The notes under the pieces are model-generated. The model was not told the origin of the DNA. It saw only the letters and a program-made list of their open reading frames with translations, and searched no databases. Shown piece after piece: positions 1 through 27,242 of a stretch of DNA of 27,242 nucleotides. The stretch is from Armatimonadia bacterium (GTDB lineage: Bacteria > Armatimonadota > Zipacnadia > Zipacnadales > UBA11051): positions 1-27,242 of the forward strand of contig JBDKRC010000164.1 in NCBI GenBank assembly GCA_039683575.1. The letters are read 5' to 3'. How positions within the stretch are numbered: position 1 is the stretch's first letter; the number at the start of each line of letters is the position of its first letter. The position numbers and the translations under genes are program-made.

Positions 1-3
1 ACT

Positions 4-26
4 GGCGGGCGAGCCGCCCGCCCCAC
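4..26 (-). repeat. GTGG-type REP-like palindrome
   Basis: Minus strand reads GTGG-GGCGGGCG-GCT-CGCCCGCC: a tetranucleotide followed by an 8-bp stem. Confidence 0.55.
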
Positions 27-137
27 TGGCACAGGTTAGCTCCAACGGGCCGACGCTCCCCCACATCCTACTACCGCCGATAATAGCTGCCACTCCCCGC
101 CGCTACCCGCCCGCCACTGTCGCCGTAGCCGTTTCCG

Positions 138-170
138 AAACTGACAACTGAAAACTGGCAACTGACAACT
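138..170. repeat. Degenerate heptamer tandem repeat (ACTGACA/ACTGAAA/ACTGGCA)
   Basis: aaactgacaactgaaaactggcaactgacaact, about 4.5 units of 7 bp. Confidence 0.7.
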
Positions 171-184
171 TCTTCCTGTATAAT
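155..184 (+). promoter_or_regulatory. Candidate sigma70-type promoter for lipA
   Basis: Perfect TATAAT at 179-184, CTGGCA (4/6 match to TTGACA) at 155-160, 18-bp spacer, about 40 bp upstream of lipA. Confidence 0.35.
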
Positions 185-222
185 GCCCCGGCCGGGTCGT
201 ATCCCGCCGAAATCCCCCTAAG

Positions 223-1128
223 GTGGCCTTTTTCGTGTCTCAACCACTGCCTGACCAGCCCCCGCACCTGCCCCTCCCCCCGTGGCTCCGCGTCAAAACC
301 GGTAAGGCACGCCTCACTTGCAGCACCCGCGCCCTCGTCGACTCCCATGGTCTGCACACCGTCTGCGACAGCGCCCGCTGCCCTAACATCGGCGAGTGTT
401 ACTCCAGCCAGACCGCGACCTTCCTCATCATGGGTTCGGTCTGCACCCGCAATTGCGGTTTCTGCGCCGTAACCCACGGCTGCCCTGAGCCCCTCGACCC
501 CGAGGAGCCCCGGCGCCTCGCCGAGGCCGCGCTGAACCTCGGTCTGCAGTACGTCGTCGTCACCTCCGTGACCCGAGATGATGTAGAAGATGGTGGCGCC
601 GGCCATTTCGCCGCTACCATACAATCACTGCGCGATGCCGGCATATCTCAGGTAGAAGTCCTGATTCCGGACTTCCAGGGCCAAGTGGCCCCCCTGCAGG
701 CCGTCTTGCAGGCCCAACCCTATGTCCTCAACCACAACGTCGAGACGATCCGCCGTCTGTGCCCGAGCGTGCGCCCTGCGGCGGCCTATGACCGCTCCCT
801 CGGCGTCCTGCGCCACTCCCGCGAACTCGCCCCCAAAATCATACGAAAATCAGGCTTCATGGTAGGTCTCGGCGAATCGGATGACGAAGTGATGGAGTTG
901 CTTCACGACCTGCAACAGGCCGGCTGCCAGATTCTGACCATTGGGCAGTATCTGCGCCCTTCGCGCGCTCACCTGCCGGTGCAGCGTTACGTCGAGCCCG
1001 AACAGTTCGACCGCTACGCCGCCGCCGCGCAACAAATCGGCATCCCGCAGGTCCTGGCAGGGCCCTTCGTCCGCAGCAGCTACAAAGCCGCCGAAACCGC
1101 CGCCGCCCTCGGGTCCGCCTCCGGGTAG
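223..1128 (+). CDS. lipA: Lipoyl synthase (radical SAM)
   Basis: PPWLRVK N-terminus, auxiliary cluster motif CX4CX5C (CDSARCPNIGEC), radical SAM CX3CX2C (CTRNCGFC), HNVET, TIGQYL and C-terminal RSSY. Start (GTG 223 vs GTG 235) uncertain. Confidence 0.95.
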   Translation: MAFFVSQPLPDQPPHLPLPPWLRVKTGKARLTCSTRALVDSHGLHTVCDSARCPNIGECYSSQTATFLIMGSVCTRNCGFCAVTHGCPEPLDPEEPRRLAEAALNLGLQYVVVTSVTRDDVEDGGAGHFAATIQSLRDAGISQVEVLIPDFQGQVAPLQAVLQAQPYVLNHNVETIRRLCPSVRPAAAYDRSLGVLRHSRELAPKIIRKSGFMVGLGESDDEVMELLHDLQQAGCQILTIGQYLRPSRAHLPVQRYVEPEQFDRYAAAAQQIGIPQVLAGPFVRSSYKAAETAAALGSASG

Positions 1129-1270
1129 GGGCTCCCCTGAGCGCGACCGGCGTGGTGGCCGACCAACCTGCATCAGCATCACCCGGAGGGGCCGCATGGG
1201 CAGCCTCACCGCCCATCCGGCCCTGCCGTCATCACCGTCCAGCATCGCGCGGGCTCGCCCCCAATACGAA

Positions 1271-4200
1271 ATGCTAACTCGCCTGTCGCGTCACCTTCTC
1301 CTTCTTGTCCTGGCCCTGGCCCTGGTGATCATCGCCGGCGTGCTGGTAATCGTTCGTGAATCCGACTGGGCGCACCGCCGCCTCCAGCAGGCTGTCACCC
1401 GCCAGCTCGTTGACCTCCTCGACCGCGAAGTCGCCGTTGGCCCGGTGACCGGCGACCCACTCACCGGCCTCACCGTCCACGGCCTCGCCATCGCCGAAGG
1501 CAAACGCCTCTCGGGCGGCGCCATCATCACCGCCGGCCGCGTCGTCATCAAGTACGACTTTGCGTCCCTCGTGAGCGGCCGTCTCGCCCCCATCGCCTCC
1601 ATCTCGGAAGTCAATGTCTACCAGGCCAACGCCCGGATCATCCGTGACGCCAAAGGCCGCCTCAACGTCAAGGGCCTCCTCCCGCCAGCCCGCCGGGTCC
1701 CGCCCGAGAAGCGCTTCCGGGGCCGTCTCTTTATCCACGACAGCGCCCTCGCCTATCTGGACTACGGCAGCTTCGTCAAAAGACCGCCCTTGCGCGTCCA
1801 CGTCATAGACGTCCAGGGGCAGGCCGATCTGCGCCAGGTAACGCGCCTCGTGGCTAATCTCTCCGCCCGCGTCGCCGATGGCAAAGCCGAGAGCCTGGCC
1901 GCCAAACTGGTTACCGAACTCGAGCGCCCCTACTTCGACCTCTCCGCCAAGTTAGTCGGCGTCAACGCGCCTTGGGCCTACGCCACCTTTGGCGCTCTTC
2001 CCGGCCTGTCCGTCACCTCCGGCCGCGCCGACATCACCGGCAGCGTCTATCAGGTCCCCATCGCCGGCAAGCGCAAACTAGACTTTAGCGTCAATGCGAC
2101 CCTCAGCGGTGTCACCGGCCGCTACCGCAATCTGGGCCCCGATCCCGTCCACGTTGACGGGGCTGTGTGGGCCAGCCTCGCCGGCGGTCGTGCCAGCAAC
2201 CTGCGTGCTACCTGGGCGGGCAGCACCTACGACCTGCGCGGCTCGATGAGCAACTGGTCCAAACCAACGTTCGATATCTCCCTGACCTCTGCCCACGCCC
2301 GCCTCTCCCCTATCGTCAACTTCCTGCCGGCCAAAACCCGCCGCGGCCTAAGCATCCCTGCCAGCGGCTTCGCCAGCGTGGTCGCCTCGGTCGTCGGCCC
2401 GCCGGACAATGCCGATCTTCGCCTGAAACTCGGCCTGCAGGACGGCCTCAGCGTCCGCCTCCCCAACCTCGGCCTCGTCCAGGCCGACCGCCTGCAACTC
2501 GCCGCCGACGTGGTATCCACCGCCAACCCCTCCGTCCGCGCCACTCTCAGTGGCCGCCGTCTCGTCGTGCCCACCATGCAACCTGCCGGCAAGGGCTGGC
2601 CGCGCCGCCTCACCATCGCTCCCCTCTCCCCCTTTGCCGCTTCTGTCCAATGGTGCGGAGGCCAGCCCGTCGCTGAGGCCACTCTCCGGGCCCCCGCCGT
2701 CCGCGCCGACAACCTCCGTCTCGCCAACGTCCGCACCCGCGCCACCATCGTGGACGGCGTCGCCCGTCTGCAAGACATCCAGGCTCAGGCCCTCGGTGGT
2801 CGTCTCACCGCCGAGGCCAGCCTGCGCTTCCGCGGCGGCCCTCCCACCGTCCGCACCCGCGGCTCCATCACCGGGCTCGACCTTGCCCGCCTGAAGGAAT
2901 TGCCCCTGAACCTCCGCGACACGGTGAACGGCTCGGCCAATCTCGACTTCCAGGCCCACCTGCGCGATCAGCGCTTCGCTGGCATCTTCGGTCTCTCCGC
3001 AGCCAACATCATCGTCCGCAACACGATCATCCAGGGGCTCAAGGGCACTTTCGGACTCGAAAGAGGCGCCGCCCTGCACGGTGCTGGCCGCTTCACGGCC
3101 ACCGGCGTTAAGCAGGAGGACCTGCAAGCCAACCAGGCCGAGGCCCTCGTAGAGCTGACCGGTAACCGCCTGGACATCCTCAGCGGCTCCTGGCAGGGCC
3201 CCGATGGCCTCTTCTGGGCTTCCGGGGATATCAACCTCGACACCGAACAGGCCGACCTGCAGGTAAGCGGCGCCGAGCTTGCCATGCGCCCGCTCTCCCA
3301 CATGATCGGCCTGCGTGACTTCGCCGGCACCGGCTACCTCTCCGGTCGGGTTGTGGGTACTCCTTCGGCCCCGACCTTCCTCGGCCGCCTGACCGTCTTC
3401 AAGCCGGAAGCCAGCGAGTATGTCTTCGATGCTTTCACCGCCGACGTCACCTACCGGCCGCCCTTTCTCGCCGCCAAAGACCTCCTGCTCAGCCGCGGCA
3501 GTATGATCATCAGTGGCGACGCGAGCCTTGCCAATCTAGGCGCTCCCGCTGCCCAGATGCCAATCTCCGGCACCCTCAATGGGCAGAGCATCAGTCTCGC
3601 CGACCTGGCTGACTTGCTGCAAAAGGACTGGCCTGTAACTGGCCTCGCCGAGTTCACCGCCAAGATCGGCGGCAGCCTCGCCCGCCCGAGCGCCTCGGGC
3701 ATCCTCCGCCTCGCCAATGCGAGCTACAAAGAGCTCGTCGTCAACAGCGCCAGCGTGCCATACACCTACTCCGGGAATGATCTTCACTTCGAAGGCGCGC
3801 AGGCCGTGCTCTTCGACGCTCCCGTCACCGCCACCGGCACTCTGGTCCTGTCCGAGCCTCCCAACCTCGATGCCACTCTCACCGTGGGCAAGGTCGCCCT
3901 GCAGGGCCTTGCGCCGCTCCTGGGCGAGGACTTCCCCGTGGCCGGCATGGTTTCCATTCCTGAGATCAAGGTCTCGGGCCCGCTCGACAAATTGCAGGGC
4001 CAGGGCCGGCTTGTTGGTACTGACCTTGAGCTGGGTGGCGAGACGGTTCAGAACGTGAACACTGCCATTTCGCTTGCGAGCGGGCAGGTCCAACTCGAGA
4101 AGACCACACTGGGCCTCGCCGGCGGTCGGGTCGTCGTCAGCGGCGCCTACGACTACGCCACGCACCCCCATACCGTCAACGCCAAGCTTGACCTGCAGAA

Positions 4201-6523
4201 CGCCGATATCCCCGACCTGCTCTATCTTGCCCTGCCCATCATTCAACTCGCCGACGATCGCCCGTTGCGCGAGCGCGCCGACACGCGCCTGGAGATGCGC
4301 AGCCTTGCTTTGCGCCTCAAGGGCAATCTCACCGGCGACCTCAACCTCACCGGCACCGTTGCCCACCCCACCGCCGTGGCTAACCTGAAGGGCCGCAATC
4401 TCGTCCTCGATGACCGCAAGCTTCCGGACGTTGACGGACGAGGCACCGTAAGCCGCACCGCCCTCACCAAGCTCGCAGTGGAACTGCGGCAGGGGCAAGC
4501 GCTCGTAACCATAAATGGCGATTTGGCCTACAAGGGCGACCTCAAACTGGAGATCTTTGGAAGCGCCATCGAGTTGGCCCAGCTCCGGCCCTGGATTCCA
4601 CTCGATGTGACGTATGGCGGGAGGCTCGGCTTCGGCATTGGCGCCGAAGGTCAAACGCGCAGTCCCCATCTCGTCATGTCAGTGGACGTCGTCGATCCCA
4701 CCTTTGCGGGAGTCAAATTCGATCTACTGAACATACCCACGATTGACGTCCAGGATGGCAGAATCAACATCGACACCGGCGCTCTCATCCGCCAGAAGCA
4801 GGAAGTAGTCGTCAACGGCACCCTGCCCTTCTCCTGGGGCGCCAAGCCCGGCTCTCATCTGGGCCTGGATCCCAAGGGAGAGCTCAACCTCAGCGGCAAG
4901 GTCGCGGACACGCAACTCGCCTTCTTCCTCCCGCTTATCGACGAGTACCTCCGCGCCCATGCCCAGGCTGTCGGCTCCGGCGCCGAACCCACCTTCCGCT
5001 GGGCGAACATGACCTCCACGGGCAAGGTCTCCGCAACTTACAGCGTGACGGGTACCACCCCAAACCCGGTCATAAATGGCAACCTCAAGCTGGCCGACGG
5101 CTCCCTTGCCCCGCCCGGCTGGGACCACCCGGTCACAGGTCTGCAAGCCGACCTCGTCTTCACCGGCTCAGGTGCCGAAAACCTAGTCCAGGTCAAGGCG
5201 CTGACCGGCGCCTACGAAACCTTCACCCCGAGCCTCACCGGCCGCATGTGGCTCGACAAGCTCGGCCTGCCGCGCTTCTGGCAGAACCGCTTCGATCTTG
5301 ACCTCGCGCTGACCGCAGGTGCCCTTGACCTCCCGGGCGGCAGCCGTCTCACCGGCCTGAATGGCGGTCTCACCTTCCGCACCGAAGACGGCGCCCAGGT
5401 CCTGCGCCCGCGCGACAACCTCGGCTTTACCCTCGGTGGCGGCCGGGTAAACATGGAGGGCGAGGCGCGCCTCAGAAACTTCTACGTCCCCGAGCTCGCC
5501 AGCAACTTCTATGACCTCACGCTGAACGTCCCCGGCAGCCGCGTGCTGTATCGCAACTACGTCAACGCGCTGCTGGCCGGCAAGCTGCAGATCGTCACGC
5601 CGCCCTCGGCCAAGCCCAAAGCCGAAATCCGGGGCGGCCTCGCCCTTTCCGACGGCATGGTGGGCCTCATCATGCCCGCCGCCGGCGGCACCGGAGGCAT
5701 GCACGCCCTCAGTTCCGCCGCGCCCTCTCCGCTGCTGAACCTCACCCTCGACCTCGGCAAGCGCATGGCACTGCGAGGCTCTGGCGTCACCCTGCAGCTC
5801 GAACCGGAAGAGAAGACCGTAGCCATCACCGGCACTCCGCAGGCCCCAACCCTGGTCGCCAGCCTCCACTCCCGCACCGGCACGACCACCTTGCCGACCG
5901 CCAGCTTCCACATCGAGCAGCTTGACGTCAACCGCTTCACGGTCTCCCCGGTCCCCGGTGGCGATCCCCAGCGCCTGACCGCCAGCGGCGAGATCTCTGG
6001 CGTCGCCTATACCTCGATCAGCCGCCCCGGCGACCGCCCCATCCGCGTCCGAGCCGACATCAGCGGCCGCCTCCCTGACGCGGTCAAAATCTCCACCAGT
6101 TCCGATCCGGAACTCACCGAGTCCCAGATCTACGCCCTCGTCGGGGGCGTGCCCTTCGCCTATCTGCCCGGACTGGGCACCCGCGACCCCAACCTCGGCG
6201 ACGTTGTCTCCGAGCAGTTCCTGGCCACCCTCGCCAACGCCTTCAGACTGCGGGTCTTCCAGCCGATTGAAGAGCAGCTAAAGGGCCTGCTGGGCCTTGA
6301 CGAACTCGGCATCAGCTTCGCTTTCGACCAGCCAATCTCACTGCAGGTAGGCAAGTACCTGGTGCAGAACTTACTGGTCTCATACGAACGGCCACTGGCA
6401 GATAATGCCGAGCAATACGACCTCCGCGTATCTTACCAGTTGCCGGGAGGCCTAAGAATCACGTATCATAATGACGAACGGAACGATAACCGCGTCGAGA
6501 TTGGCTATACTTTCACGTTCTAG
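1271..6523 (+). CDS. tamB: TamB/AsmA-like translocation and assembly module protein (~1750 aa)
   Basis: N-terminal hydrophobic anchor (MLTRLSRHLLLLVLALALVIIAGVLVIV), repeated beta-taco motifs (GTPSAPTFLG, GSLARPSASG, GTTPNPVING), DUF490-like C-terminus (SSDPELTESQIYAL, LQVGKYL) and adjacency to bamA. ATG 1271 preferred over the ORF-track start at 941, which overlaps lipA. Confidence 0.8.
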   Translation: MLTRLSRHLLLLVLALALVIIAGVLVIVRESDWAHRRLQQAVTRQLVDLLDREVAVGPVTGDPLTGLTVHGLAIAEGKRLSGGAIITAGRVVIKYDFASLVSGRLAPIASISEVNVYQANARIIRDAKGRLNVKGLLPPARRVPPEKRFRGRLFIHDSALAYLDYGSFVKRPPLRVHVIDVQGQADLRQVTRLVANLSARVADGKAESLAAKLVTELERPYFDLSAKLVGVNAPWAYATFGALPGLSVTSGRADITGSVYQVPIAGKRKLDFSVNATLSGVTGRYRNLGPDPVHVDGAVWASLAGGRASNLRATWAGSTYDLRGSMSNWSKPTFDISLTSAHARLSPIVNFLPAKTRRGLSIPASGFASVVASVVGPPDNADLRLKLGLQDGLSVRLPNLGLVQADRLQLAADVVSTANPSVRATLSGRRLVVPTMQPAGKGWPRRLTIAPLSPFAASVQWCGGQPVAEATLRAPAVRADNLRLANVRTRATIVDGVARLQDIQAQALGGRLTAEASLRFRGGPPTVRTRGSITGLDLARLKELPLNLRDTVNGSANLDFQAHLRDQRFAGIFGLSAANIIVRNTIIQGLKGTFGLERGAALHGAGRFTATGVKQEDLQANQAEALVELTGNRLDILSGSWQGPDGLFWASGDINLDTEQADLQVSGAELAMRPLSHMIGLRDFAGTGYLSGRVVGTPSAPTFLGRLTVFKPEASEYVFDAFTADVTYRPPFLAAKDLLLSRGSMIISGDASLANLGAPAAQMPISGTLNGQSISLADLADLLQKDWPVTGLAEFTAKIGGSLARPSASGILRLANASYKELVVNSASVPYTYSGNDLHFEGAQAVLFDAPVTATGTLVLSEPPNLDATLTVGKVALQGLAPLLGEDFPVAGMVSIPEIKVSGPLDKLQGQGRLVGTDLELGGETVQNVNTAISLASGQVQLEKTTLGLAGGRVVVSGAYDYATHPHTVNAKLDLQNADIPDLLYLALPIIQLADDRPLRERADTRLEMRSLALRLKGNLTGDLNLTGTVAHPTAVANLKGRNLVLDDRKLPDVDGRGTVSRTALTKLAVELRQGQALVTINGDLAYKGDLKLEIFGSAIELAQLRPWIPLDVTYGGRLGFGIGAEGQTRSPHLVMSVDVVDPTFAGVKFDLLNIPTIDVQDGRINIDTGALIRQKQEVVVNGTLPFSWGAKPGSHLGLDPKGELNLSGKVADTQLAFFLPLIDEYLRAHAQAVGSGAEPTFRWANMTSTGKVSATYSVTGTTPNPVINGNLKLADGSLAPPGWDHPVTGLQADLVFTGSGAENLVQVKALTGAYETFTPSLTGRMWLDKLGLPRFWQNRFDLDLALTAGALDLPGGSRLTGLNGGLTFRTEDGAQVLRPRDNLGFTLGGGRVNMEGEARLRNFYVPELASNFYDLTLNVPGSRVLYRNYVNALLAGKLQIVTPPSAKPKAEIRGGLALSDGMVGLIMPAAGGTGGMHALSSAAPSPLLNLTLDLGKRMALRGSGVTLQLEPEEKTVAITGTPQAPTLVASLHSRTGTTTLPTASFHIEQLDVNRFTVSPVPGGDPQRLTASGEISGVAYTSISRPGDRPIRVRADISGRLPDAVKISTSSDPELTESQIYALVGGVPFAYLPGLGTRDPNLGDVVSEQFLATLANAFRLRVFQPIEEQLKGLLGLDELGISFAFDQPISLQVGKYLVQNLLVSYERPLADNAEQYDLRVSYQLPGGLRITYHNDERNDNRVEIGYTFTF

Positions 6524-6630
6524 GCGTACCAACAAGCTTCTCCCGGTAGTGTAAGCCGGCGCCCGCCCTGTGCAGACGTCCGGCTCTTTGCGTGTGTGTG
6601 CGATTAACACGGCGGCTCTGGGCTTCAGCC

Positions 6631-6658
6631 GCAACCCGACGCCCGACTGCCTGTCTAA
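6631..6658 (+). promoter_or_regulatory. Candidate ECF-type (autoregulatory) promoter
   Basis: GCAACCC-N16-TCTAA (AAC in -35, GTCTAA in -10) about 60 bp upstream of the ECF sigma gene; architecture resembles RpoE/AlgU GAACTT-N16-TCTAA. Confidence 0.35.
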
Positions 6659-6720
6659 CCTCCCGCGGGGCCTAGTTGCAGCGCTTCGTGACCATGCCTC
6701 TCAAGCGGCCATGACCATGG

Positions 6721-9197: not shown

Positions 9198-9208
9198 CCG
9201 CTCTGGCC

Positions 9209-20537: not shown

Positions 20538-20579
20538 GGGGACGGGATCTTGGCTTGCGCTGAGGCTCCGTCCCCTTTT
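20538..20579. repeat. GGGGACGG...CCGTCCCC hairpin between convergent genes (possible terminator)
   Basis: 8-bp terminal stem followed by TTTT; AGGCTCCGTCCCC is shared with 26641-26660. Confidence 0.5.
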
Positions 20580-20603
20580 GCGTTTGTCTGGTGAGGGTAA
20601 GGG

Positions 20604-23261
20604 TCACTTTCGCCAGAGGTAGGCCCAGGCGAAACCGTTGGCGCTCTGGGCGCGCTCCAGGGCTGTCCAGACTGTGGGGAGGCTGATGGCGTTGGGATAT
20701 ATCAGGAACCGCGGCTGCCACTCGGGGTTGAACTTGGATTTGAACTCGTAGAGGCCTTTGAAGTCGTAGAAGCGGTCGATGCTCTCGAAGACGTAGTGCA
20801 GCACGCGCTCGAGAGCGGGATCGCCGGGCGCTTCACCGATGCCTGCCAGGGGGCTGAGGCCAAGGTTGAAGGTGGCGTGGCCCTGATCTCGGGCGTACTC
20901 GAACAGCCGGACGAAGAGTAGATCCATCGTCCCCCTTTCAGTCTCCCGGCGCTGCCGCATCAGGTCTATCGTCGCCTCGTTCAACTGGTACTCGGGTATC
21001 AGGTTCGCGAAGGCCATGATGATGCCCGCCGCATCGTGGATTGCCATGACCGGGCAGTCCCTCAGGTACTCCTCGTCAAACCACCCCAGTGAGAAACGCT
21101 TCTCCGTGCCGTGAACGCTGGTCAGCCAGTCGTCGCTTACCTCTCGTAACTGGGCAATCAGGCGCGGGGACAAGGGCGGAGAGTGGACCTGTGCTTCGTA
21201 TCCGAGCTTGGTGAGACGGTTTATCGTGTGCCGGAGGCCCTTGGCCTCTCCGCCCGCGAGACTGAAGGTTGTCACGTCCACGATTGCCTCGTGGCCGATG
21301 CGCAGGGTTTGATAGCCGGCCTGGGTGTAGAGGTCGAGATAGTCAGGGAGGACCTGGAACCAGGCGGGTTGCCAGTCGTGGCGGCGGCAGTGCTCGGCGA
21401 ACTCCCTGATGGCGTCCCGGGCGTCGTCGGGCGGGCCGATCGGGTCGCCGAGGGCGACGGCAGTGGCCCCGCGGACGGCGAAGGGTGTGACTGAGCCAGC
21501 CGTGGAGAAGTGATAGTGCTTGTCGGGGAGGAGAGCGATGTGAGCGAGGGAAGAGCGGCCGTGGGCTTCCACGATATCACGCGCCCGGCGTCGCTGTGCC
21601 GCTGTGGCCGGACGGCGCATCAGCACCGGGCGGAGCAGCATGACGAGGGCGTAGGCGAAGGTCAGCGCGGCTACGAGGTAGATTGACCTTGCAAAGTACC
21701 GTCCGAAGCCGGTGATGGGCTGTAGGGAGGGCTCCCCGAACTCGGTGAACATGACGAGGGACTGCTTCAGGGCGGCGGCCAGGCCGAAGTTGAGGCTGAA
21801 GTGACGGTCCAGAAGGTAGAGGCCGAGGGTGCCGTAGGCGAGGGTGAAGACCAGCGCGGCGGCAACGGCAATGAGGCCCTGCGTCACCGAGGGCGGGTCG
21901 GAGACGGCGTTGAAGCTGCCTCGAAGGCTTAGCAGCCAGAGGGCGAGTGCGGCTGCGAGGGTGGCCTCCTCGTAGTCGAGGCCTTTGACGAGGTGGCTGA
22001 CGATGGAGACGCCAAGGACCAGCAAGGTCAGTAGCCAGGCAATGCGCTTGTGGCGGCTCAGGCCGCGGGCCAGCATGATGAGGGCGAAGCCGGCCATGCT
22101 GGCAGCCAGGTGGCCGCCGTGACGGACCTCCAGCGGCAAGTCGGCACGGATCAGGTGCAGCCGGGCGGCGAGCGAGGGGGTGATGCCCGACAGGAGGTTG
22201 ACGATCCCCATCAGGGCGGTCAGGAGGGACACGATGGCCACGCTGGCGGCGGTGTGGGCGGGGTGGCGCCACTTGCGGAAGGACGGCACGCGGTGCACAA
22301 GGATGAACCCGGCTAACAGCGGGAGCCAGAAACCCAGGCCTCGGAAGGCGAGGGAGATGGTAAGGGCCTTGGCCATGGGAACGTCGAGGGAAGCGAGCGC
22401 CAGAGGCATGGTGGTCTCGACGACGCCGATGCCCTGTGGGGTGATGGCTATGATCCAGAAGAGGATGCCGACCGCGTAGCCGGCAACGAGGACGCCGAGG
22501 CTTACGGGATGGTCGAAGGCCAGGAAGAGGGCGTAGAAGCTGGCAAGATCGATGACCTCGCAGGCGACGGCAGCGCCGGCGGGTGGCAGCAGGACGGCGG
22601 GATGACTGGCGACCGCGGAGGCGGCCTGGGTCAGCTCCTGAGCGGAGTTCTCGACCCAACCGGGAGGGATGAGGCCCGGGCGTCCGACGCGTGAGGCCAG
22701 CCAGTTGCCGATCATGCCCACAAGGCTGAGCAACCAGCGGAGGGCTGAGGGAAACCACTGGCCCATGAGCAGGACGGCGGCCCAGCCTACTATCACCAGG
22801 AGCAACAGGACGCTCGCGATCTTTTCGTAGATCGTGAGGTCGTGATAGCGGTACAGCCATCCAAGGCCGACCATGAGGACGACGGCGAAGGCGCTGAAGT
22901 ACAGGATGCGGACGAGCACTGTCGCGGCGGCCGCTTTGACGCCGGACTGGCCTCGCTGGACGGCATCGTCCACCCAGAGGGCGGTGCCGGTGGCGGGAGC
23001 GACGACGCTGATGAAGATCGAGGAGAACATGACCGGGAGCAGGTCGCGCAGGCGTCCGGAGACTCCCATGGCGCGAAAGCAGGTCTGGTAGAGCAGGGTG
23101 TGGGCGACCCAGAAGCCGAACTGCAGGATGGCCGCCGCGAGGAGGTAGGTCCAGTGCGCGCCGGCGAGCGTGCGGCCGAGGGCCTCAATCTCAGGCAGCC
23201 GACTGATGATGACCCAGATGGCACCCACGATCAGCAGTCGCAATATCCAGACTCTAGTCAA
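20604..23261 (-). CDS. mprF: MprF-like aminoacyl-phosphatidylglycerol flippase/synthase
   Basis: Multi-TM N-terminal flippase domain (ITPQGIGVVE...AFRGLGFWLP), HLVKGLDYEEA, and DUF2156 C-terminal domain (DKHY, ALGDPIG, IGHEAIVD, EKRFSLG, IDLMR, GTMD, LGLSPL, FKGLYEFKSKFNPEWQPRF). Confidence 0.88.
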   Translation of the reverse strand: MTRVWILRLLIVGAIWVIISRLPEIEALGRTLAGAHWTYLLAAAILQFGFWVAHTLLYQTCFRAMGVSGRLRDLLPVMFSSIFISVVAPATGTALWVDDAVQRGQSGVKAAAATVLVRILYFSAFAVVLMVGLGWLYRYHDLTIYEKIASVLLLLVIVGWAAVLLMGQWFPSALRWLLSLVGMIGNWLASRVGRPGLIPPGWVENSAQELTQAASAVASHPAVLLPPAGAAVACEVIDLASFYALFLAFDHPVSLGVLVAGYAVGILFWIIAITPQGIGVVETTMPLALASLDVPMAKALTISLAFRGLGFWLPLLAGFILVHRVPSFRKWRHPAHTAASVAIVSLLTALMGIVNLLSGITPSLAARLHLIRADLPLEVRHGGHLAASMAGFALIMLARGLSRHKRIAWLLTLLVLGVSIVSHLVKGLDYEEATLAAALALWLLSLRGSFNAVSDPPSVTQGLIAVAAALVFTLAYGTLGLYLLDRHFSLNFGLAAALKQSLVMFTEFGEPSLQPITGFGRYFARSIYLVAALTFAYALVMLLRPVLMRRPATAAQRRRARDIVEAHGRSSLAHIALLPDKHYHFSTAGSVTPFAVRGATAVALGDPIGPPDDARDAIREFAEHCRRHDWQPAWFQVLPDYLDLYTQAGYQTLRIGHEAIVDVTTFSLAGGEAKGLRHTINRLTKLGYEAQVHSPPLSPRLIAQLREVSDDWLTSVHGTEKRFSLGWFDEEYLRDCPVMAIHDAAGIIMAFANLIPEYQLNEATIDLMRQRRETERGTMDLLFVRLFEYARDQGHATFNLGLSPLAGIGEAPGDPALERVLHYVFESIDRFYDFKGLYEFKSKFNPEWQPRFLIYPNAISLPTVWTALERAQSANGFAWAYLWRK

Positions 23262-23423
23262 AATGTCTCCCTGAGGTAAACGGTGCGGACCGCTCTTTCC
23301 TACGAAGGGTTGTGAGGGAAGGTTCAGTGGGAGAGAGAGCGTCAGGATGGAGAGGATGGGGCCGGGGGGGTGGAGGATGATTGGAAGCGAGGGGGAATGT
23401 TGTGGTGTGTTCTGGGGCGAGGC

Positions 23424-23541
23424 TGGGTCGGTGATGACGGCCGGCGGGGTACGGAGCCCCCGCCCTACAGCGGAGGGTGGGTCGGTGATGACGGCTGGCG
23501 GGGTACGGAGCCCCCGCCCTACAGCGGAGGGTGGGTCGGTG
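23424..23541 (-). repeat. Two 54-bp tandem units each containing REP-A
   Basis: Units start at 23424 and 23478 (partial third at 23532); the reverse complement matches 9238-9290 including the CCGTCATCACCGACC tail. Confidence 0.9.
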
Positions 23542-23580
23542 TTCGTGGCGGAGGGCTGTTTACATATGGGAGGGTTTCAC

Positions 23581-26406
23581 ATGCGTCGAGCGCTCTTGGT
23601 GGGAATTTGTCTGGTGGCGTTGGTGTCGCTGGCGGAGGCTGGTGGGTTTGTTGCGGCTACTAATGTGGAGTGCACGCCAGAGGGCGTGTCGCTGGCGCCG
23701 CGTTGGGAGCGGGCCTATGCGGAGGGGTTTGAGGGGGATTTGAGCGGATGGGCGTTTGAGAATTTCGAGGACAAGCTCGTGATTGAGCGGAGTGCGGAGG
23801 GGGCGCATGGCGGGGCCGGGCTCTTTCGGGTTGCGGGCAACAAGAGCGGGGATACCGCGTGGGAGATGAAGTCGAAGCCGGTGGCGGTGGAGGCTGGGAC
23901 GACGGTTCGCCTACGATTCTGGCTGAGGAACAACAGGGGGCTGGAGTTTGTGTCGGGGCATCAGGGGCACTATGAGTCGCGGGTGGAGTACCTTGACGCG
24001 GCGGGACAGGTCGTCGGGTTCACGCCCGTGATCTGGGGGGAAGTTGACGACAAGTGGCATCTGGTGACGGCTGCGGGTGAGGTGCCGAAGAAGGCGGTGG
24101 CGGCCGTGGTGCGGCTGGGGTTCGATTCGCCGAATATCGGGCCCGGGGAGTATGTGCTGGTGGATGATCTGGAGCTTGAGGCGCGGAGTGAGACGACCGG
24201 GTACGTGAAGGATGGGGAGTTCTCGTCGAGGCCGATCCCGGTGAAGGCCGGGTGGGGTGGCCTGGCGCTAACGCAGGCTTTGACGCCGAAGGGGACGGCC
24301 GTCTCAGTGGAGATGCGGACGGCGGCTGATGAGGGCGGGAAGCCGGGGGCCTGGTCGGAGTTCAACAAGCCGAGGAAGGAAGCAGACAAGCTCGCGGGTT
24401 GGGTGCAGTACCGGGCGCGGCTGACGTCGGCTGACGGGAAGGCTACGCCGGTGCTGAGGTGGGTGAAGATCGGGATGGGGGCAGGGGCGGTTACGGATAC
24501 CGGGTGGACCGGCGTTGATACCGAGGCGCCGGTGCTTGGGGAGCATTCGCCGACGCGGACGGAACAGGCGCAGGTGACGCTGCGGTTCAACGTTCAGGAC
24601 GCGGGCGTGGGGCTGGAGATGCCGAGCGTGCGGCTGGCGCTGGATGGCGAGGCTTTGGCAGTGCGGCGAGAGGCCAATGGGGAGTATGTGGCCCAGCCGG
24701 CGAAGGCGTTGGCGCCGGTGAGCAATCCCGGCGGGTTCCGAGGGTGGCGGACTAGTAACTTCAGCAATGCGCTGACGATCAAGCGCGGGGAGCCGCGGGT
24801 GGCGGACGGGGCGGAGAGTATGAGGGTGAGCCGCGCGGCGGGGGAAGTTGATACGGCGTTCACGCTGGCTTCGCCGGAGATTCCAGTCGAGGCCGGGGCG
24901 AAGTATGTGCTGTCGGTGTGGCTGCGGACGGATGTGGATTTGCGTCAGGTGGACGCGCGCGGGGCGAGGGGGATCAGGTGGCTGAATGACAAGGGGGAAG
25001 CGATCGGCGAGCCGGTGGCGGTTGCGTATGGGGCGGCAGGGACGGATTGGCATGAGGTGCGGAAGGAACTGGTGGCTCCGGCCGGGGCGGCGGCTTGTGT
25101 GATCGCGCTGGGTTGGGACACCCCGAACCTGGCGAATGGGCGGTACGTGGAGTTTGCGGAGGTGAAGCTGGAGGGGCCGCACCCGGCGCGGGACATGGGC
25201 CCGAACCTGCATGAGATCGTGGTGACGGCGCGGGATCTGGCGGGCAATGAGATGCGCAAGACGTGGCATCTGCTCGTGAAGGAGGCGCCGAAGACGGGGC
25301 TGGTGACGGTGCGGAAGGATGGAGTGACGCTGGTGGATGGCAAGCCCTTCTTCCCCATCGGCATCTACTCGGTGTCGCGGCGGCCGGACAATAACAACAG
25401 CTATGACGATGCCTTCAAGGAGCTCAAGGCGGCGGGCTTCAACCTGGCGCACACCTATGCGAATGCGCGTGGGCCGGAGTTTACGGAGTTCATGCATGCG
25501 GCGGAGCGGCAGGGCATGAAGCTGTTCATCGCGCCAGAGACCGGCAACAACAACCCCGATGCGGAGGGAGCGCTGCAGTCGGTGGTGCGGGAGTGCAATG
25601 AGCCCGCGGTGCTGGCGTGGTACCTGGCGGATGACACGTCAGGGCACATCAGCCCCAAGGATCTCAAGCGCGTCCATGAGGCGATCATGGAAGTTGACCC
25701 GTATCACATGACGACGCAGGCGGATGGAGTTGCGAAGCTCAATGACGACCGGTATGTGCGCTACGTGAACTCGACGACGGGGTTTTTGCCGGAGCTTTAC
25801 CCGATATATCAGAAGACCGGCAACCACGTTGCCGACGTGATCCGCGGGATGAAGAACGTGCAGGAGGCGTGGAAGGCGTCGGGGCGGGTGACGCCGGTGT
25901 GGGCGATCATCCAGGACTTTGAGGGCTGGGGCTGGGCGCGGTTCCCGACCGATGCCGAAGAGCGCTGCATGGTGTACCTGGCGATCATCCACGGGGCGCA
26001 GGGGATGACGTGGTACACGTATGCCTACAGGGATGACAAGCATGGGGCGCCGTGGGACAAGAAGGTGTGGGCGTACCTGAAGGGCATCGCGACCGAGTTG
26101 TCGTCGCTCAGCGGGCCACTAACGGCGGAGGCGCCGAAGGAAGTGGCGAAGGGTGAGGTCGTGGCGGGGCCGGCGCTGGGTGATCTGGAGTATCCGAGCC
26201 TCAATCTGAGGCTGATGAAGCATGAGGGCGCTTGGTACCTGCTGGCGGCGAACTCCGCGGAGGCGCCGATCAAGGCGAGGATGACCGTGCCGGGGCTGAA
26301 GGGTGAGGCGGACGTGGTGTTTGAGGGGCGGAAGGTGAAGGCTACGGGTGGGAGGATTGAGGATGAGTTTGGGCCGCTGGCGGTGCATGTTTACCGCTGG
26401 CGGTGA
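23581..26406 (+). CDS. Secreted multidomain protein: two CBM4/9-like modules, Ig-like domain and C-terminal glycoside hydrolase-like TIM barrel (~941 aa)
   Basis: GGAGGG RBS, ATG 23581, signal peptide MRRALLVGICLVALVSLAEA; duplicated module DTA..S..V.VEAG...WLR...WH.V...LG.D.PN; LVDGKPFFPIGIY, AGFN, AWYLADD and YLAIIHGAQGMTWYTY typical of clan-A-like barrels. Confidence 0.75.
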   Translation: MRRALLVGICLVALVSLAEAGGFVAATNVECTPEGVSLAPRWERAYAEGFEGDLSGWAFENFEDKLVIERSAEGAHGGAGLFRVAGNKSGDTAWEMKSKPVAVEAGTTVRLRFWLRNNRGLEFVSGHQGHYESRVEYLDAAGQVVGFTPVIWGEVDDKWHLVTAAGEVPKKAVAAVVRLGFDSPNIGPGEYVLVDDLELEARSETTGYVKDGEFSSRPIPVKAGWGGLALTQALTPKGTAVSVEMRTAADEGGKPGAWSEFNKPRKEADKLAGWVQYRARLTSADGKATPVLRWVKIGMGAGAVTDTGWTGVDTEAPVLGEHSPTRTEQAQVTLRFNVQDAGVGLEMPSVRLALDGEALAVRREANGEYVAQPAKALAPVSNPGGFRGWRTSNFSNALTIKRGEPRVADGAESMRVSRAAGEVDTAFTLASPEIPVEAGAKYVLSVWLRTDVDLRQVDARGARGIRWLNDKGEAIGEPVAVAYGAAGTDWHEVRKELVAPAGAAACVIALGWDTPNLANGRYVEFAEVKLEGPHPARDMGPNLHEIVVTARDLAGNEMRKTWHLLVKEAPKTGLVTVRKDGVTLVDGKPFFPIGIYSVSRRPDNNNSYDDAFKELKAAGFNLAHTYANARGPEFTEFMHAAERQGMKLFIAPETGNNNPDAEGALQSVVRECNEPAVLAWYLADDTSGHISPKDLKRVHEAIMEVDPYHMTTQADGVAKLNDDRYVRYVNSTTGFLPELYPIYQKTGNHVADVIRGMKNVQEAWKASGRVTPVWAIIQDFEGWGWARFPTDAEERCMVYLAIIHGAQGMTWYTYAYRDDKHGAPWDKKVWAYLKGIATELSSLSGPLTAEAPKEVAKGEVVAGPALGDLEYPSLNLRLMKHEGAWYLLAANSAEAPIKARMTVPGLKGEADVVFEGRKVKATGGRIEDEFGPLAVHVYRWR

Positions 26407-26416
26407 GGGGAAGAGG

Positions 26417-26458
26417 CAGGGGTCAGGAATCAGGGGTCAGGGGTCAGGGGTCAGGGTC
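26417..26458. repeat. Heptamer repeat (TCAGGGG)n
   Basis: caggggtcaggaatcaggggtcaggggtcaggggtcagggtc. Confidence 0.75.
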
Positions 26459-26484
26459 CGAAACGACGGTAACGGCGGGAAGGG

Positions 26485-26538
26485 CCCTCACCCCCGGCCC
26501 CTCTCCCATGCGACTGCGGACCGTCGCCGGGAGAGGGG
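26485..26538 (+). repeat. CCCTCACCCC..CCCCTCTCCC...GGGAGAGGGG palindromic element
   Basis: 10-bp stem (26498-26507 with 26529-26538) preceded by CCCTCACCCCC; a widespread REP-like family. Confidence 0.65.
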
Positions 26539-26572
26539 AGAAAGGCGTGTGGGAAGGACGGAGCTTGGTGGT

Positions 26573-26660
26573 CAACATGGGGACGGAGCCTTGGCGCGAA
26601 TGCGCCGGATTGAGTGCTGGCGAGGGGACGGTGGCGCGCAAAGGCTCCGTCCCCATGTTG
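26573..26660. repeat. Perfect 20-bp inverted repeat
   Basis: CAACATGGGGACGGAGCCTT (26573-26592) / AAGGCTCCGTCCCCATGTTG (26641-26660). Confidence 0.85.
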
Positions 26661-26702
26661 GGTGAGGGGTGTCGGGGACGGCGGAGGCGGGCTGGGGAGG
26701 CC

Positions 26703-26787
26703 GGAATGGGGACAGACCCCAGTTTCGCATTGGGGGAAGGCGGGAAGAGGCTGGGAAGGTTGCGAAATTGGGGTCAGTCCCCATTCC
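26703..26787. repeat. 27-bp inverted repeat (2 mismatches), GGGGACAGACCCC family
   Basis: GGAATGGGGACAGACCCCAGTTTCGCA / TGCGAAATTGGGGTCAGTCCCCATTCC. Confidence 0.85.
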
Positions 26788-26885
26788 TGGGGAAGCGCGG
26801 GAGGCGAAGGGGGGGCTGGGCCGGATGCGCGTCGCGGACGTTCCGTCCGCAAGACAGCGCACTCGGCCCCTCCAACGGCGTAGTG

Positions 26886-26916
26886 GGCGCCCCATCCTTG
26901 AGGAGGATGGGGCGCC
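26886..26916. terminator. 13-bp stem hairpin between convergent genes
   Basis: GGCGCCCCATCCT-TGAGG-AGGATGGGGCGCC followed by TTT; 10 bp from the TGA at 26926. Confidence 0.5.
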
Positions 26917-26925
26917 TTTGGGTTC

Positions 26926-27240
26926 TCAGGGGGCCAGGGCTTCGTGGGTTTCTTTCAGCTGCTCGATGATCTTGATCTTCTGCGGGCACTAGGGCTCGCA
27001 CTGGCCGCAGGCTCTGCAGGCGGAAGCGTCGGTTTCGCCCTTGTCGTTTTCCTTGCTTAGCTCGGCGTACATTTCCCTGGCGTGGGCGGTGAGGCCCCAG
27101 ACGCGGTGCAGGTTGATGGCCGCGAAGGCTTTGGGGATCGCTACGCCCTGCGGGCAGGGGAGGCAGTACTCGCAGCCGGTGCAGTAGAGCTCGGCGAGCT
27201 TTTGATTGTCCTGCAGGGCCTGGTTGATGGCCTCGATCTC
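26926..27240 (-). CDS. 3' end of an Fe-S dicluster protein (probably aldo/keto reductase with C-terminal 4Fe-4S domain), with an in-frame TAG at 26991-26989; 5' part outside the window
   Basis: Manual translation (not in the ORF track): EIEAINQALQDNQKLAELYCTGCEYCLPCPQGVAIP...DASACRACGQCEP*CPQKIKIIEQLKETHEALAP-TGA. Confidence 0.8.
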
Positions 27241-27242
27241 GG

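What the first reader, a model, noticed from the sequence alone, without database searches (positions are those of the whole stretch)
1..27242. Strong C-rich to G-rich strand-skew switch, independent of gene orientation, mirror-centred on the 14780-15375 spacer
Seen (hand counts on selected 60-nt lines, + strand). Left: 2461-2520 has C29/G14, 8341-8400 C26/G15, 13021-13080 C25/G11. Right: 24961-25020 has G32/C10 (a + strand gene) and 21841-21900 G26/C17 (a - strand gene). So + strand genes prefer C-ending codons on the left and G-ending codons on the right. Within about 1 kb of the spacer the sign locally reverses on both sides (14221-14280 G24/C14; 15721-15780 C29/G10), giving reverse-complement symmetry about the spacer. 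Established: a C-to-G skew transition is the signature of a replication origin. Inference: no dnaA, dnaN, gyr or parAB gene and no consensus DnaA box was seen here. This could be a non-canonical or orphan origin, or one of many sites imposing bidirectional strand-asymmetric mutation or repair.
Basis: partly seen in the sequence, partly recalled or inferred. Interest (0 to 1): 0.8.

Follow-up and report, generated by a model that had tools for sequence, protein, structure and literature searches.

The report
Motif-marked strand-skew switch sites
This bacterial contig flips from C-rich to G-rich at a short inserted DNA element, one of about fifty such elements in the genome that each sit at the centre of a two-sided, roughly 15-kb zone of strand-biased base change that close relatives lack.

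Summary
All seven hand counts are exact. The + strand GC skew goes from -0.156 (1-12900) to +0.241 (16401-27242), and third-codon-position skew follows position, not coding strand.

It is not a lone origin. The 6.2-Mb Armatimonadota draft genome has a sawtooth skew: sharp C-to-G jumps outnumber G-to-C jumps 21 to 4, and declines are gradual.

Two short AT-rich motif families mark the jumps. Family A has two tandem copies in the window's 14780-15375 spacer. Family B has about 28 copies, and 25 of 25 evaluable copies show an upward jump. An unbiased 11-mer scan ranks these two motifs first.

Neither motif was found in 40 relatives. A same-genus genome is collinear across the site but lacks the spacer and shows no skew, so the skew arose in this lineage.

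Around the elements the strand running 5'-to-3' outward loses C and A and gains G and T, whatever the gene orientation. The effect ramps up over about 1.5 kb and fades by 12-18 kb. The dnaA locus shows no jump.

Best reading (about 0.45): the elements start a two-way DNA unwinding or synthesis process that exposes one strand. The protein involved is unknown. About half the jumps carry neither motif.

The parts
1..12900 (.). C-rich arm: the + strand is C-rich although all called genes here are on the + strand (radical SAM, TamB 941-6523, ECF sigma 6721-7326, BamA 7323-9197, Skp 9303-10076, LpxD 11335-12375)
   Evidence: Total skew -0.156. GC3 skew per gene -0.25 to -0.54. Pfam names. Orthologues in same-genus G002 have little skew.
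12704..12909 (.). Left arm of a 206-nt inverted repeat built from GC-rich REP-like palindromes
   Evidence: I1: 92% complementary to 16384-16589; I2: to 16803-16965. The units score 31.7-36.9 bits against Rfam Acido-Lenti-1, whose gathering score is 37.
13010..14779 (+). 589-aa gene with no Pfam family. It lies in the transition zone and its 3' end shows the locally reversed skew.
   Evidence: GC3 skew -0.03 overall. No Pfam match. An orthologue is present in G002, G003 and G004.
14780..15375 (.). 596-nt low-GC spacer between convergent genes. It is the centre of the switch and is absent from the collinear locus of same-genus G002.
   Evidence: GC 0.545. In G002 the two convergent genes abut. 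An independent DNA contig (X2) spans 12827-15433 and X1 spans 15212-16346.
14864..15019 (+). Family A element, copy 1. Its core palindrome at 14918-14946 has a degenerate right arm.
   Evidence: nhmmer 93.1 bits, E 2.7e-26; alignment.
15098..15240 (+). Family A element, copy 2. Its core at 15141-15169 is of the A1 type, one mismatch from the form found at the strongest jumps.
   Evidence: nhmmer 98.5 bits, E 5.9e-28. Core pattern match at 15142-15166. All 5 A1-type loci show jumps of +0.46 to +0.87.
15376..16377 (-). FecR-like gene in the transition zone
   Evidence: Pfam FecR 9.6e-19. GC3 skew +0.14 on the + strand. An RNA-library contig covers 15166-16294.
16384..17125 (.). Right-hand REP-like repeat cluster: the inverted-repeat partners at 16384-16589 and 16803-16965, plus seven tandem units about 37-41 nt apart
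   Evidence: D1, D2, I1, I2.
16401..27242 (.). G-rich arm: the + strand is G-rich in + genes (Ser/Thr kinase-PQQ 17253-19643, GNAT 19751-20218, CBM protein 23347-26406) and in the - gene MprF 20604-23261
   Evidence: Total skew +0.241. GC3 skew on the + strand +0.30 to +0.57. Pfam names.

Best explanation
The window holds one of about fifty sequence-defined sites in this Armatimonadota genome. At these sites a two-way, strand-polar DNA transaction starts again and again over evolutionary time. Two short AT-rich recognition sequences mark the sites. Family A is a roughly 160-nt dyad element whose core has two 10-12-bp inverted arms around a short centre; two tandem copies lie in the 14780-15375 spacer. 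Family B is a conserved sequence of about 30 bp preceded by two TGCGCAAA boxes. INFERRED: a protein not yet identified binds the core and starts unwinding, or leading-strand-type (strand-displacement) synthesis, outward in both directions for about 15 kb. On each side the strand running 5'-to-3' away from the site is left single-stranded. There it loses C (to T) and A (to G). Under this genome's general pressure toward G+C, G becomes the sink at fourfold sites. The outcome is a sharp C-to-G switch at the element and a gradual fade with distance. SHOWN: the association of motif and jump, the two-sidedness, the independence from gene orientation, the base-change pattern, the range, and that skew and spacer are derived in this lineage. 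NOT SHOWN: the molecular event (origin firing, displacement synthesis or helicase loading), the binding protein, and the direction of causality.
For: (1) Skew is positional. Opposite-strand neighbour genes share + strand GC3 skew (r=+0.61, n=914) and are anticorrelated on the coding strand (r=-0.67).
(2) Sawtooth. In 4-kb bins, steps above +0.5 number 9 against 0 below -0.5 (n=1026, skewness 0.73, p=5e-18). Jumps are 21 up against 4 down.
(3) Motifs. Family B: 25 of 25 evaluable copies have a positive left-to-right jump in either orientation (sign test 6e-08). Family A: 9 of 21 evaluable loci exceed +0.4, against 4% of 973 background gaps (p=5e-08). The A1 core variant is 5 of 5.
(4) Unbiased scan. 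Among 144,563 11-mers the top 14 are all family B (z up to 9.8), followed by family A (z 6.5). No motif is tied to down-jumps (lowest z -4.0).
(5) Lineage-specific and derived. Both motifs have 0 hits in 40 relatives, 3 of them same-genus. G002 is collinear over window 6716-20217 but lacks the spacer and any jump. In 400 kb of G002, 0 of 100 bins exceed |0.25|, against 25% of 971 bins in G000. Orthologues of G000's skewed genes have GC4 skew of -0.05 to -0.07 in G002, against +0.53 and -0.51 in G000. Three-species parsimony in the window gives, on the left, G>C 44/80 against C>G 22/172, and on the right, C>G 71/122 against G>C 6/52.
(6) Two-sided. Both arms of B are significant (+0.17 and +0.27); the A1 arms are +0.38 and +0.39.
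(7) Independent of transcription. 139 genes point away from the sites and 135 toward them, and both sets are skewed (+0.19 and +0.27).
(8) Base-change pattern. At twofold sites T/(C+T) is 0.36 on G-rich strands and 0.16 on C-rich strands. A/(A+G) is 0.10 against 0.22 (3557 genes). This is the deamination-of-exposed-strand pattern as I recall it from organelle DNA.
(9) Profile. The effect ramps to a plateau by 1.5-2 kb and fades by 12-18 kb in both families.
Against: - Only 22 of 43 up-jumps (delta above 0.40) have A or B within 3 kb.
- Only 96 of 448 strongly skewed 3-kb bins lie within 15 kb of a known site.
- No third motif was found.
- Several family A copies show no jump: C113 -0.14, C149 -0.09, C171 -0.29, C323 +0.03.
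- No initiator-like gene recurs beside the elements.
- Rep_3 and Prim-Pol are absent from G000.
- If ordinary forks leave no skew in this genus and none at the dnaA locus, ordinary origin firing cannot explain the effect. A special, uncoupled process has to be assumed.
- The 1-1.5-kb ramp and the slight reversal in the first 300 nt are not predicted by a simple origin.
- Synonymous sites are near saturation between the species compared. The primary mutation types are therefore inferred from equilibrium composition, not observed.
- The genome is a 352-contig metagenome bin.
Confidence: 0.45

Rival explanations
1. The elements are passengers. Another process in this lineage makes the skew domains, for example origins or unwinding sites defined by something other than these motifs. 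Mobile A and B elements then insert preferentially at the existing switch points.
For: About half of the jumps carry neither motif. No third motif turns up. Some A copies sit where there is no jump. The elements are multi-copy and lineage-specific, as mobile DNA is.
Against: The core sequences are nearly invariant while their flanks have diverged. This looks like constraint on a recognition site, not recent copying. Jump strength depends on the core variant: A1 is 5 of 5 strong and the palindromic A2 is weak. Family B is 25 of 25 positive. No transposase recurs beside the elements. Y1 transposases are equally present in the skew-free congeners G002 and G003.
Confidence: 0.2
2. Orphan transfer-origin-like nick sites. 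Single strands with their 5' end at the element are displaced or transferred, damaged while single-stranded, and recombined back into chromosomes of the population (Hfr-like), with inheritance falling off with distance.
For: The exposed strand would be the one running 5'-to-3' away from the site, which matches the sign. An end-proximal dip is expected for recombination of a strand that starts at the site, which matches the 1-1.5-kb ramp. Family B's downstream arm tends to be stronger, +0.27 against +0.17, p=0.056.
Against: No relaxase (PF03432, PF08751) and no coupling protein (PF02534) was found in G000, though plasmids can be missing from a bin. Both arms are affected at nearly all sites, whereas a nick site acts on one strand. 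Neither element resembles any plasmid record.
Confidence: 0.1
3. The elements are strong outward-facing promoters or R-loop sites, and the asymmetry is caused by transcription, with the non-template strand exposed.
For: The sign fits, since the non-template strand would be the outward strand. An RNA-library contig begins at 15166, at the edge of the copy-2 core, and runs to 16294. Its strand is unknown and DNA carry-over is not excluded.
Against: The effect spans about 15 kb through genes of both orientations, with equal gene numbers and equal skew once the coding-strand offset is allowed for. Family B has no consistent relation to the downstream gene, 12 co-oriented against 17 opposed. There is no conserved RNA structure and no Rfam match.
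Confidence: 0.07
4. Artefact or rearrangement: a misjoin, an inversion between the 206-nt inverted repeats, or a scrambled genome whose ordinary two-replichore skew has been shuffled.
For: Inverted repeats flank 12910-16383. The genome is a fragmented bin. No single contig bridging the whole of 12.7-17.2 kb was listed.
Against: Gene order and orientation are collinear with G002 from 6716 to 20217, across the flip. Independent contigs cover both spacer junctions. Inversions would give equal numbers of sharp up and down jumps, not 21 against 4 or 1.31% against 0.03%. They would give blocks, not gradients. Congeners have no replichore skew to shuffle. The motif association is unexplained by this reading.
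Confidence: 0.03
5. Selection rather than mutation: a motor or packaging protein reads G-rich polar words pointing away from the elements, and selection for those words builds the skew.
For: At fourfold sites every other base tends toward G on the outward strand, which looks like a preference for G.
Against: The skew is a general single-base effect at synonymous sites of all gene classes. It includes T over C at twofold sites, where G is not an option. A GC3 skew of 0.4-0.5 would need an implausible density of words. No enrichment of particular words was tested.
Confidence: 0.05

Closest known systems
Bacterial chromosomal origin (oriC, DnaA-dependent)
   Same: A sharp C-to-G switch of strand skew, with G and T enriched on the strand running 5'-to-3' away from the site, on both sides.
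   Different: There are dozens of sites rather than one. There is no DnaA-box cluster and no adjacent dnaA or dnaN. The actual dnaA locus, which has DnaA-box-like sites, shows no jump. The effect fades within 12-18 kb instead of filling a replichore. There is no gene-strand bias. The sites are absent from congeners.
Multiple origins of archaeal chromosomes (origin recognition boxes beside orc1/cdc6 genes)
   Same: Several sequence-defined sites per chromosome with dyad-symmetric recognition elements. As I recall, such origins can be captured from mobile elements.
   Different: The organism is a bacterium with BamA, TamB and LpxD. No initiator gene sits beside the sites. The skew is much stronger than I recall for archaeal origins. 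Two listed papers argue that archaeal skews come largely from gene orientation (10.1101/2023.11.15.567178 and PMC12999951; search listing only).
Skew N-domains of mammalian genomes (upward skew jumps at origins, gradual decline between them)
   Same: A sawtooth: abrupt upward jumps and gradual declines, independent of gene orientation. Papers PMC2764438 and PMC3320577 were seen in the search listing only.
   Different: The scale is about 15-kb arms rather than megabases. Long stretches near zero skew lie between sites. The sites are defined by conserved motifs. The organism is a bacterium.
Strand-displacement replication gradients in organelle DNA (mitochondrial heavy strand; chloroplast deamination gradients)
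   Same: Loss of C (to T) and of A (to G) on the strand left single-stranded, with strength that depends on position relative to the start site. Papers PMC8565317, PMC3269012 and PMC2695485 were seen in the search listing only.
   Different: Here the pattern lies on a bacterial chromosome, around many short elements, on both sides, with a limited range. Displacement synthesis is inferred, not observed.
'Jagged' GC skew noted for Fimbriimonas ginsengisoli (same phylum)
   Same: A bacterial genome of the phylum whose skew map is irregular rather than two-armed (PMC4072686; passages read).
   Different: [quoted passage not shown] I could not examine that genome. The relatives I did examine, in the same genus, family and order, show no such skew at the loci or contigs sampled.

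Membership tests
Bacterial oriC | Cluster of DnaA boxes (consensus as printed in PMC4072686) | tested here: not met
   The window has 2 matches at up to 1 mismatch against 1.66 expected, and none lies in the spacer.
Bacterial oriC | One per chromosome, usually beside dnaA/dnaN | tested here: not met
   dnaA is on contig C252, and no C-to-G jump occurs there. There are 24 family A loci and about 28 family B copies.
Bacterial oriC | C-to-G strand-skew switch at the site | tested here: met
Bacterial oriC | Replication starts there (marker-frequency peak, nascent strands) | not testable with these tools
   All runs found were held as contigs, with no usable depth.
Archaeal-type origin | Initiator gene (orc1/cdc6-like) next to the recognition boxes | tested here: not met
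   No protein family recurs within 2.5 kb of the 48 sites, except an expanded prepilin-like family at 8 of them.
Plasmid or phage origin captured in the chromosome | Sequence similarity to a plasmid or phage record, or a cognate Rep gene | tested here: not met
   No blastn match for A or B in the plasmid and phage collections. There are 0 matches in viral contigs. Rep_3 and Prim-Pol have 0 hits in G000. Only these two Rep families were searched.
Transfer origin (oriT) | Cognate relaxase and coupling protein in the genome | tested here: not met
   PF03432, PF08751 and PF02534 have 0 hits in G000. Other relaxase families were not searched, and plasmids may be missing from the bin.
Xer/dif-type recombination site | A core of about 28 bp with two inverted arms around a 6-8-bp centre | tested here: inconclusive
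   The family A core reads as 10-12-bp inverted arms around a 4-6-bp centre. I saw no similarity to the dif consensus as I recall it, and no formal comparison was run.
Xer/dif-type recombination site | Located at the G-to-C (terminus) skew switch, single copy | tested here: not met
   The polarity is the opposite, C-to-G, and there are many copies. The terminus location of dif is from my knowledge.
REP elements with their Y1 transposase | Lineage distribution follows the transposase | tested here: not met
   Y1_Tnp genes: G000 has 7, G002 has 7 and G003 has 10. Motifs A and B occur only in G000.
Structured non-coding RNA gene | Conserved secondary structure with compensatory changes, or an Rfam match | tested here: not met
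   Family B alignment of 15 copies: 5 predicted pairs, 0 with compensatory change. Family A fold z-score -1.7. No Rfam match to A or B.
Promoter or operator of a regulon | Fixed orientation and distance to the downstream gene | tested here: not met
   For family B the downstream gene is co-oriented in 12 cases and opposed in 17, at distances of 9-1934 nt.

The most novel reading that the evidence does not exclude
A bacterial lineage has acquired two families of short, possibly mobile DNA elements. Each acts as a secondary start site for two-way, uncoupled (strand-displacement-like) DNA synthesis on the chromosome. That would make dozens of origin-like sites in one bacterial genome. Each would rewrite the synonymous and, more weakly, the non-synonymous composition of about 30 kb of neighbouring housekeeping genes.
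Probability: 0.35. Interest if true: 0.95.

Novelty: new variant of a known kind. Interest (0 to 1): 0.85.

Why it matters
Strand skew in bacteria is used everywhere as the mark of the single origin and terminus. Here it is local, motif-centred and lineage-specific instead. It is strong enough to move fourfold-site GC skew from about 0 to ±0.5 in conserved genes such as bamA, tamB and lpxD.

If the elements start DNA synthesis or unwinding, this is a natural case of many origin-like sites on one bacterial chromosome. It would also be a new way in which short elements shape the evolution of neighbouring genes. If they only mark the sites, an unknown site-specific, strand-polar mutational process remains to be found.

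Either way the question becomes directly testable, because the sites can be predicted from 25-30-bp sequences. It is also a practical warning for origin prediction, and for assembly checks based on skew in metagenome bins.

Tried and rejected
- **Coding-strand or codon-usage cause:** rejected.
- **Contig ends as hidden jump sites:** no bias. The first 4 kb exceeds the last 4 kb in 110 of 199 contigs, p=0.21.
- **Rfam:** no match to A or B.
- **RNA structure:** none for B; the A fold is not significant.
- **Third motif family:** nothing among the 21 unexplained jump windows. Nothing after masking A and B (highest z 4.4 of 26,972 10-mers).
- **Recurrent flanking genes:** none of note.
- **Gene fishing across G000-G004.** Y1_Tnp is not lineage-specific. 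Prim-Pol and Rep_3 are absent from G000. UDG is present in all five and endonuclease V absent from all five, so there is no G000-specific loss of these two deamination-repair genes. Relaxase, TrwC and the coupling protein are absent. The extra DnaA-like hits are IS21 IstB proteins.
- **Metagenome scan for the B core:** 44 loci. About 14 short contigs from one sample series carry the extended B context. The other 30 are chance or coding matches in unrelated low-GC organisms.
- **Viral contigs, plasmids, phages:** no match.
- **Read depth as a replication test:** not possible. All nine runs are kept as contigs, and per-contig depths of about 4.5-7 are flat and uninformative.
- **Joints:** those with sides under about 30 nt fall in REP-like repeats and were disregarded.
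- **Break-and-resection at the element:** considered and rejected on sign. It would expose the inward strand (reasoning from established polarity of 5'-to-3' resection).
- **The 'G002-lineage' counts:** set aside as a control, because frequent G000 changes confound them.
Full report
**Observation.** The window is a whole 27,242-nt contig (C164) of a 6.23-Mb, 352-contig genome bin. The bin is 63.5% G+C, 96.4% complete and 2.0% contaminated. Total GC skew on the + strand is -0.156 over 1-12900, +0.013 over 12901-16400 and +0.241 over 16401-27242 (1-kb profile). Third-codon positions carry most of the skew. Left-hand + strand genes have GC3 skew of -0.25 to -0.54. Right-hand + strand genes have +0.30 to +0.57. 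The right-hand - strand gene 20604-23261 is +0.36 when read on the + strand. The short reversal of sign beside the spacer is also there. A left-right difference as large as the window's occurs at 1.3% of 93,133 genome grid points.

**What organism and genes.** The genes are ordinary outer-membrane biogenesis and housekeeping genes: TamB, BamA, Skp, LpxD, an ECF sigma factor, a FecR-like protein, a Ser/Thr kinase with a PQQ propeller, GNAT and MprF. BamA relatives at 50-65% identity are Armatimonadota bins. There is no dnaA, dnaN, gyr or par gene in the window and no DnaA-box cluster.

**The skew is positional, but there is no single origin.**
- Across the genome, neighbouring genes on opposite strands share the same + strand GC3 skew (r=+0.61, n=914). 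They are anticorrelated on the coding strand (r=-0.67). So the asymmetry belongs to the DNA strand and the place, not to the gene.
- The genome-wide distribution of GC3 skew is one broad hump from about -0.6 to +0.6, not the two peaks of a two-replichore chromosome.
- 22 of 177 contigs of 12 kb or more change sign internally.
- Long contigs show a sawtooth: gradual declines over tens of kb, then abrupt upward jumps.
- The asymmetry is unaffected by reverse-complementing a contig, and it is strong. In 4-kb bins, steps above +0.5 occur 9 times and below -0.5 never (n=1026, skewness 0.73, p=5e-18).
- With 5-kb flanks there are 21 upward and 4 downward jumps of 0.45 or more. At 0.40 the count is 43 against 20.
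- Grid points at +0.49 or above are 1.31% of the total, against 0.03% at -0.49 or below.
- The jumps sit in intergenic gaps between genes of any orientation.

**Two motif families mark the jumps.**
- A 15-mer from the window's spacer recurs exactly in the gaps of the two strongest jumps of the genome, on C34 and C44.
- Alignment defines family A, a dyad element of about 160 nt. GC-rich inverted ends flank a nearly invariant AT-rich core of two 10-12-bp inverted arms.
- A profile search finds 24 family A loci at E below 1e-3, often matching on both strands. Two tandem copies lie in the window at 14864-15019 and 15098-15240.
- Of 21 evaluable family A loci, 9 have a jump above +0.4, against 4% of 973 background gaps (p=5e-08).
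- Loci with the A1 core variant are 5 of 5 strong, +0.46 to +0.87. A more perfectly palindromic variant ranges from -0.29 to +0.71.
- Gaps at other jumps share a second sequence, family B. It is a conserved stretch of about 30 bp preceded by two TGCGCAAA boxes.
- Family B has 27 copies by the 23-mer search, and all 25 evaluable copies show a positive jump, +0.04 to +0.64, in either orientation (p=6e-08).
- A scan of all 144,563 canonical 11-mers present at 8 or more loci ranks family B words 1 to 14 (z up to 9.8). Family A words follow (z 6.5). Nothing comparable is tied to downward jumps (lowest z -4.0).

**The state is derived and lineage-specific.**
- Neither core occurs in 40 relatives of the same order, three of them in the same genus. 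Family B gives 28 hits in G000 and 0 elsewhere. Family A gives 18 and 0. These genomes are 66-98% complete, so the finding is 'not found in those searched'.
- Same-genus G002 is collinear with window 6716-20217 at about 66-76% nucleotide identity.
- In G002 the two convergent genes abut, so the 596-nt spacer is missing. Skew stays between -0.10 and +0.14 across that contig.
- In 400 kb of long G002 contigs no 4-kb bin exceeds |0.25| (sd 0.079). In G000, 25% of 971 bins do (sd 0.208).
- More distant relatives show no jump at the orthologous locus.
- At fourfold sites of window genes, three-species parsimony assigns changes to the G000 branch. On the left this gives G>C at 44 of 80 ancestral G against C>G at 22 of 172. 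On the right it gives C>G at 71 of 122 against G>C at 6 of 52.
- Over 119 orthologue pairs, genes that are strongly skewed in G000 (+0.53 or -0.51) have -0.05 to -0.07 in G002.
- About 14 short metagenome contigs from one sample series carry family B in contexts orthologous to G000 copies, so a sister population shares the sites.

**Anatomy of a domain.** Averaged over sites, the strand running 5'-to-3' away from the element has a GC3 skew of about -0.05 in the first 300 nt. It rises to +0.14 by 0.9-1.5 kb and plateaus at +0.2 to +0.28 between about 2 and 10 kb. It falls to zero by 12-18 kb. The profile is the same for both families. Both arms are affected: B gives +0.17 and +0.27, and A1 gives +0.38 and +0.39. 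Within 1.5-10 kb of 36 active sites, 139 genes point away and 135 toward. Both sets are skewed, at +0.19 and +0.27, and the gap between them equals the small coding-strand offset. So there is no gene-strand bias and no dependence on transcription direction. Non-third positions also flip, from -0.07 to +0.09.

**Base-change pattern.** In 3557 genes, twofold pyrimidine sites have T/(C+T) of 0.36 on G-rich strands and 0.16 on C-rich strands. Twofold purine sites have A/(A+G) of 0.10 against 0.22. So the outward strand loses C to T and A to G. From my own knowledge, this is the pattern of deamination on a strand left single-stranded, as described for lagging-strand templates and for the displaced strand of organelle DNA (PMC8565317, PMC3269012, PMC2695485; search listing only). 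At fourfold sites every other base tends to G on that strand. I read this as the same loss of C acting under this genome's strong G+C pressure. Synonymous sites are near saturation, since the neutral class shows 31-36% C/G differences. The primary mutation types are therefore inferred, not observed.

**What it is not.**
- It is not a canonical oriC. dnaA lies on C252 with DnaA-box-like sites upstream, and there is no upward jump there.
- It is not a misjoin or inversion. The locus is collinear with G002. An independent DNA contig spans 12827-15433 and another spans 15212-16346. Shuffled replichores would give equal numbers of up and down jumps, and blocks rather than gradients.
- It is not a known RNA family, and B has no conserved fold.
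- It is not promoter-like.
- It resembles no plasmid, phage or viral record.
- No recurrent neighbouring gene was found.
- No Rep_3, Prim-Pol, relaxase or coupling protein was found in G000.
- UDG is present in all five of G000-G004 and endonuclease V in none. Loss of these two repair genes does not explain why only G000 is skewed.

**Mechanism.** The sign means that the outward 5'-to-3' strand is the exposed one. That fits forks or unwinding moving away from the element. It fits strand-displacement synthesis especially well. It is the opposite of what 5'-to-3' resection from a break would expose. Congeners and the dnaA locus show that ordinary replication leaves almost no skew in this genus. 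I therefore favour a special, probably uncoupled, two-way synthesis or unwinding that starts at the A and B cores and runs about 15 kb (confidence about 0.45). The main rivals are:
- the elements home to switch points made by something else (0.2);
- nick-and-transfer of single strands followed by recombination, which would explain the 1-kb ramp but lacks any machinery in the bin (0.1);
- outward transcription (0.07);
- selection for polar words (0.05);
- artefact or rearrangement (0.03).

**Limits.**
- Only 22 of 43 upward jumps have A or B within 3 kb.
- Only 96 of 448 strongly skewed 3-kb bins lie within 15 kb of a known site, although 90 of those 96 have the predicted sign.
- No third motif was found.
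- Several family A copies show no jump.
- The assembly is fragmented and is a metagenome bin.
- No raw reads were available for marker-frequency analysis.
- The gene calls come from a simple codon-usage caller of my own. A method that uses no gene calls gives the same picture.

**Literature.** Searches combining 'GC skew' with Planctomycetes, Armatimonadetes, Armatimonadota, and 'multiple replication origins' or 'jagged' found only one related remark. The Fimbriimonas ginsengisoli genome paper notes a 'jagged' skew map and gives no explanation (PMC4072686; passages read). I found no description of motif-centred local skew domains in bacteria in those four searches. Subscription journals and supplementary files were not covered. 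The nearest formal analogue is the skew N-domain of mammalian genomes (PMC2764438, PMC3320577; search listing only).

Noticed in passing
window 12719-12765(-), 12853-12899(+), 16394-16440(-), 16528-16574(+), 16904-16950(+): GC-rich REP-like palindromic units score 31.7-36.9 bits against Rfam Acido-Lenti-1 (RF01687, gathering score 37). They build the 206-nt inverted repeat that brackets 12910-16383. Similar 30-nt units occur at 90-100% identity in congeners G002 and G003.
   Followed up: partly
window 16577-17125 and 12481-12545: Seven copies of a GC-rich unit, the last four in tandem 37-38 nt apart (16957-17125), lie to the right of the FecR-like gene. A 27-nt exact direct repeat lies at 12481-12507 and 12519-12545.
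   Followed up: no
window 15166-16294: A metatranscriptome-library contig (X3, depth 29.9, 0 differences) covers the FecR-like gene. It ends at 15166, at the edge of the family A copy-2 core. Its strand is unknown and DNA carry-over is not excluded.
   Followed up: no
window 15376-16377: The FecR-like anti-sigma gene has no adjacent ECF sigma gene. In same-family G004 the neighbours (the 589-aa gene and the kinase) matched about 60 nt apart with no match to this gene between them, so it looks like a genus-level insertion.
   Followed up: partly
window 13010-14779, 9979-11190, 26403-26969: Three ORFs (589, 403 and 188 aa) have no Pfam family. The 589-aa one is conserved in G002-G004.
   Followed up: no
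G000 contig C51 about 5.9-7.7 kb: A Y1 (IS200/RAYT-type) transposase gene at 7083-7421 sits inside an array of REP-like repeats. It lies at an upward skew jump (+0.46) that carries neither motif A nor B.
   Followed up: no
G000 genome-wide: A third repeated intergenic word (ACGGAAAACAGAAA-like, about 30 loci) shows a weak positive association with upward jumps: mean +0.11 to +0.14, 75-83% positive, z about 4. This is not significant after correction.
   Followed up: partly
window 6001-26000 against runs X1 and X2: Strain-level differences in independent contigs include many C/G transversions: 65 of 313 changed places in X1 (C>G 31, G>C 34) and 70 of 377 in X2. The direction of change is unknown.
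   Followed up: no
G000 contig C116 16673-17107: Five tandem copies of a 22-nt unit lie about 250 nt upstream of a family B copy, in a low-GC (0.53) gap.
   Followed up: no
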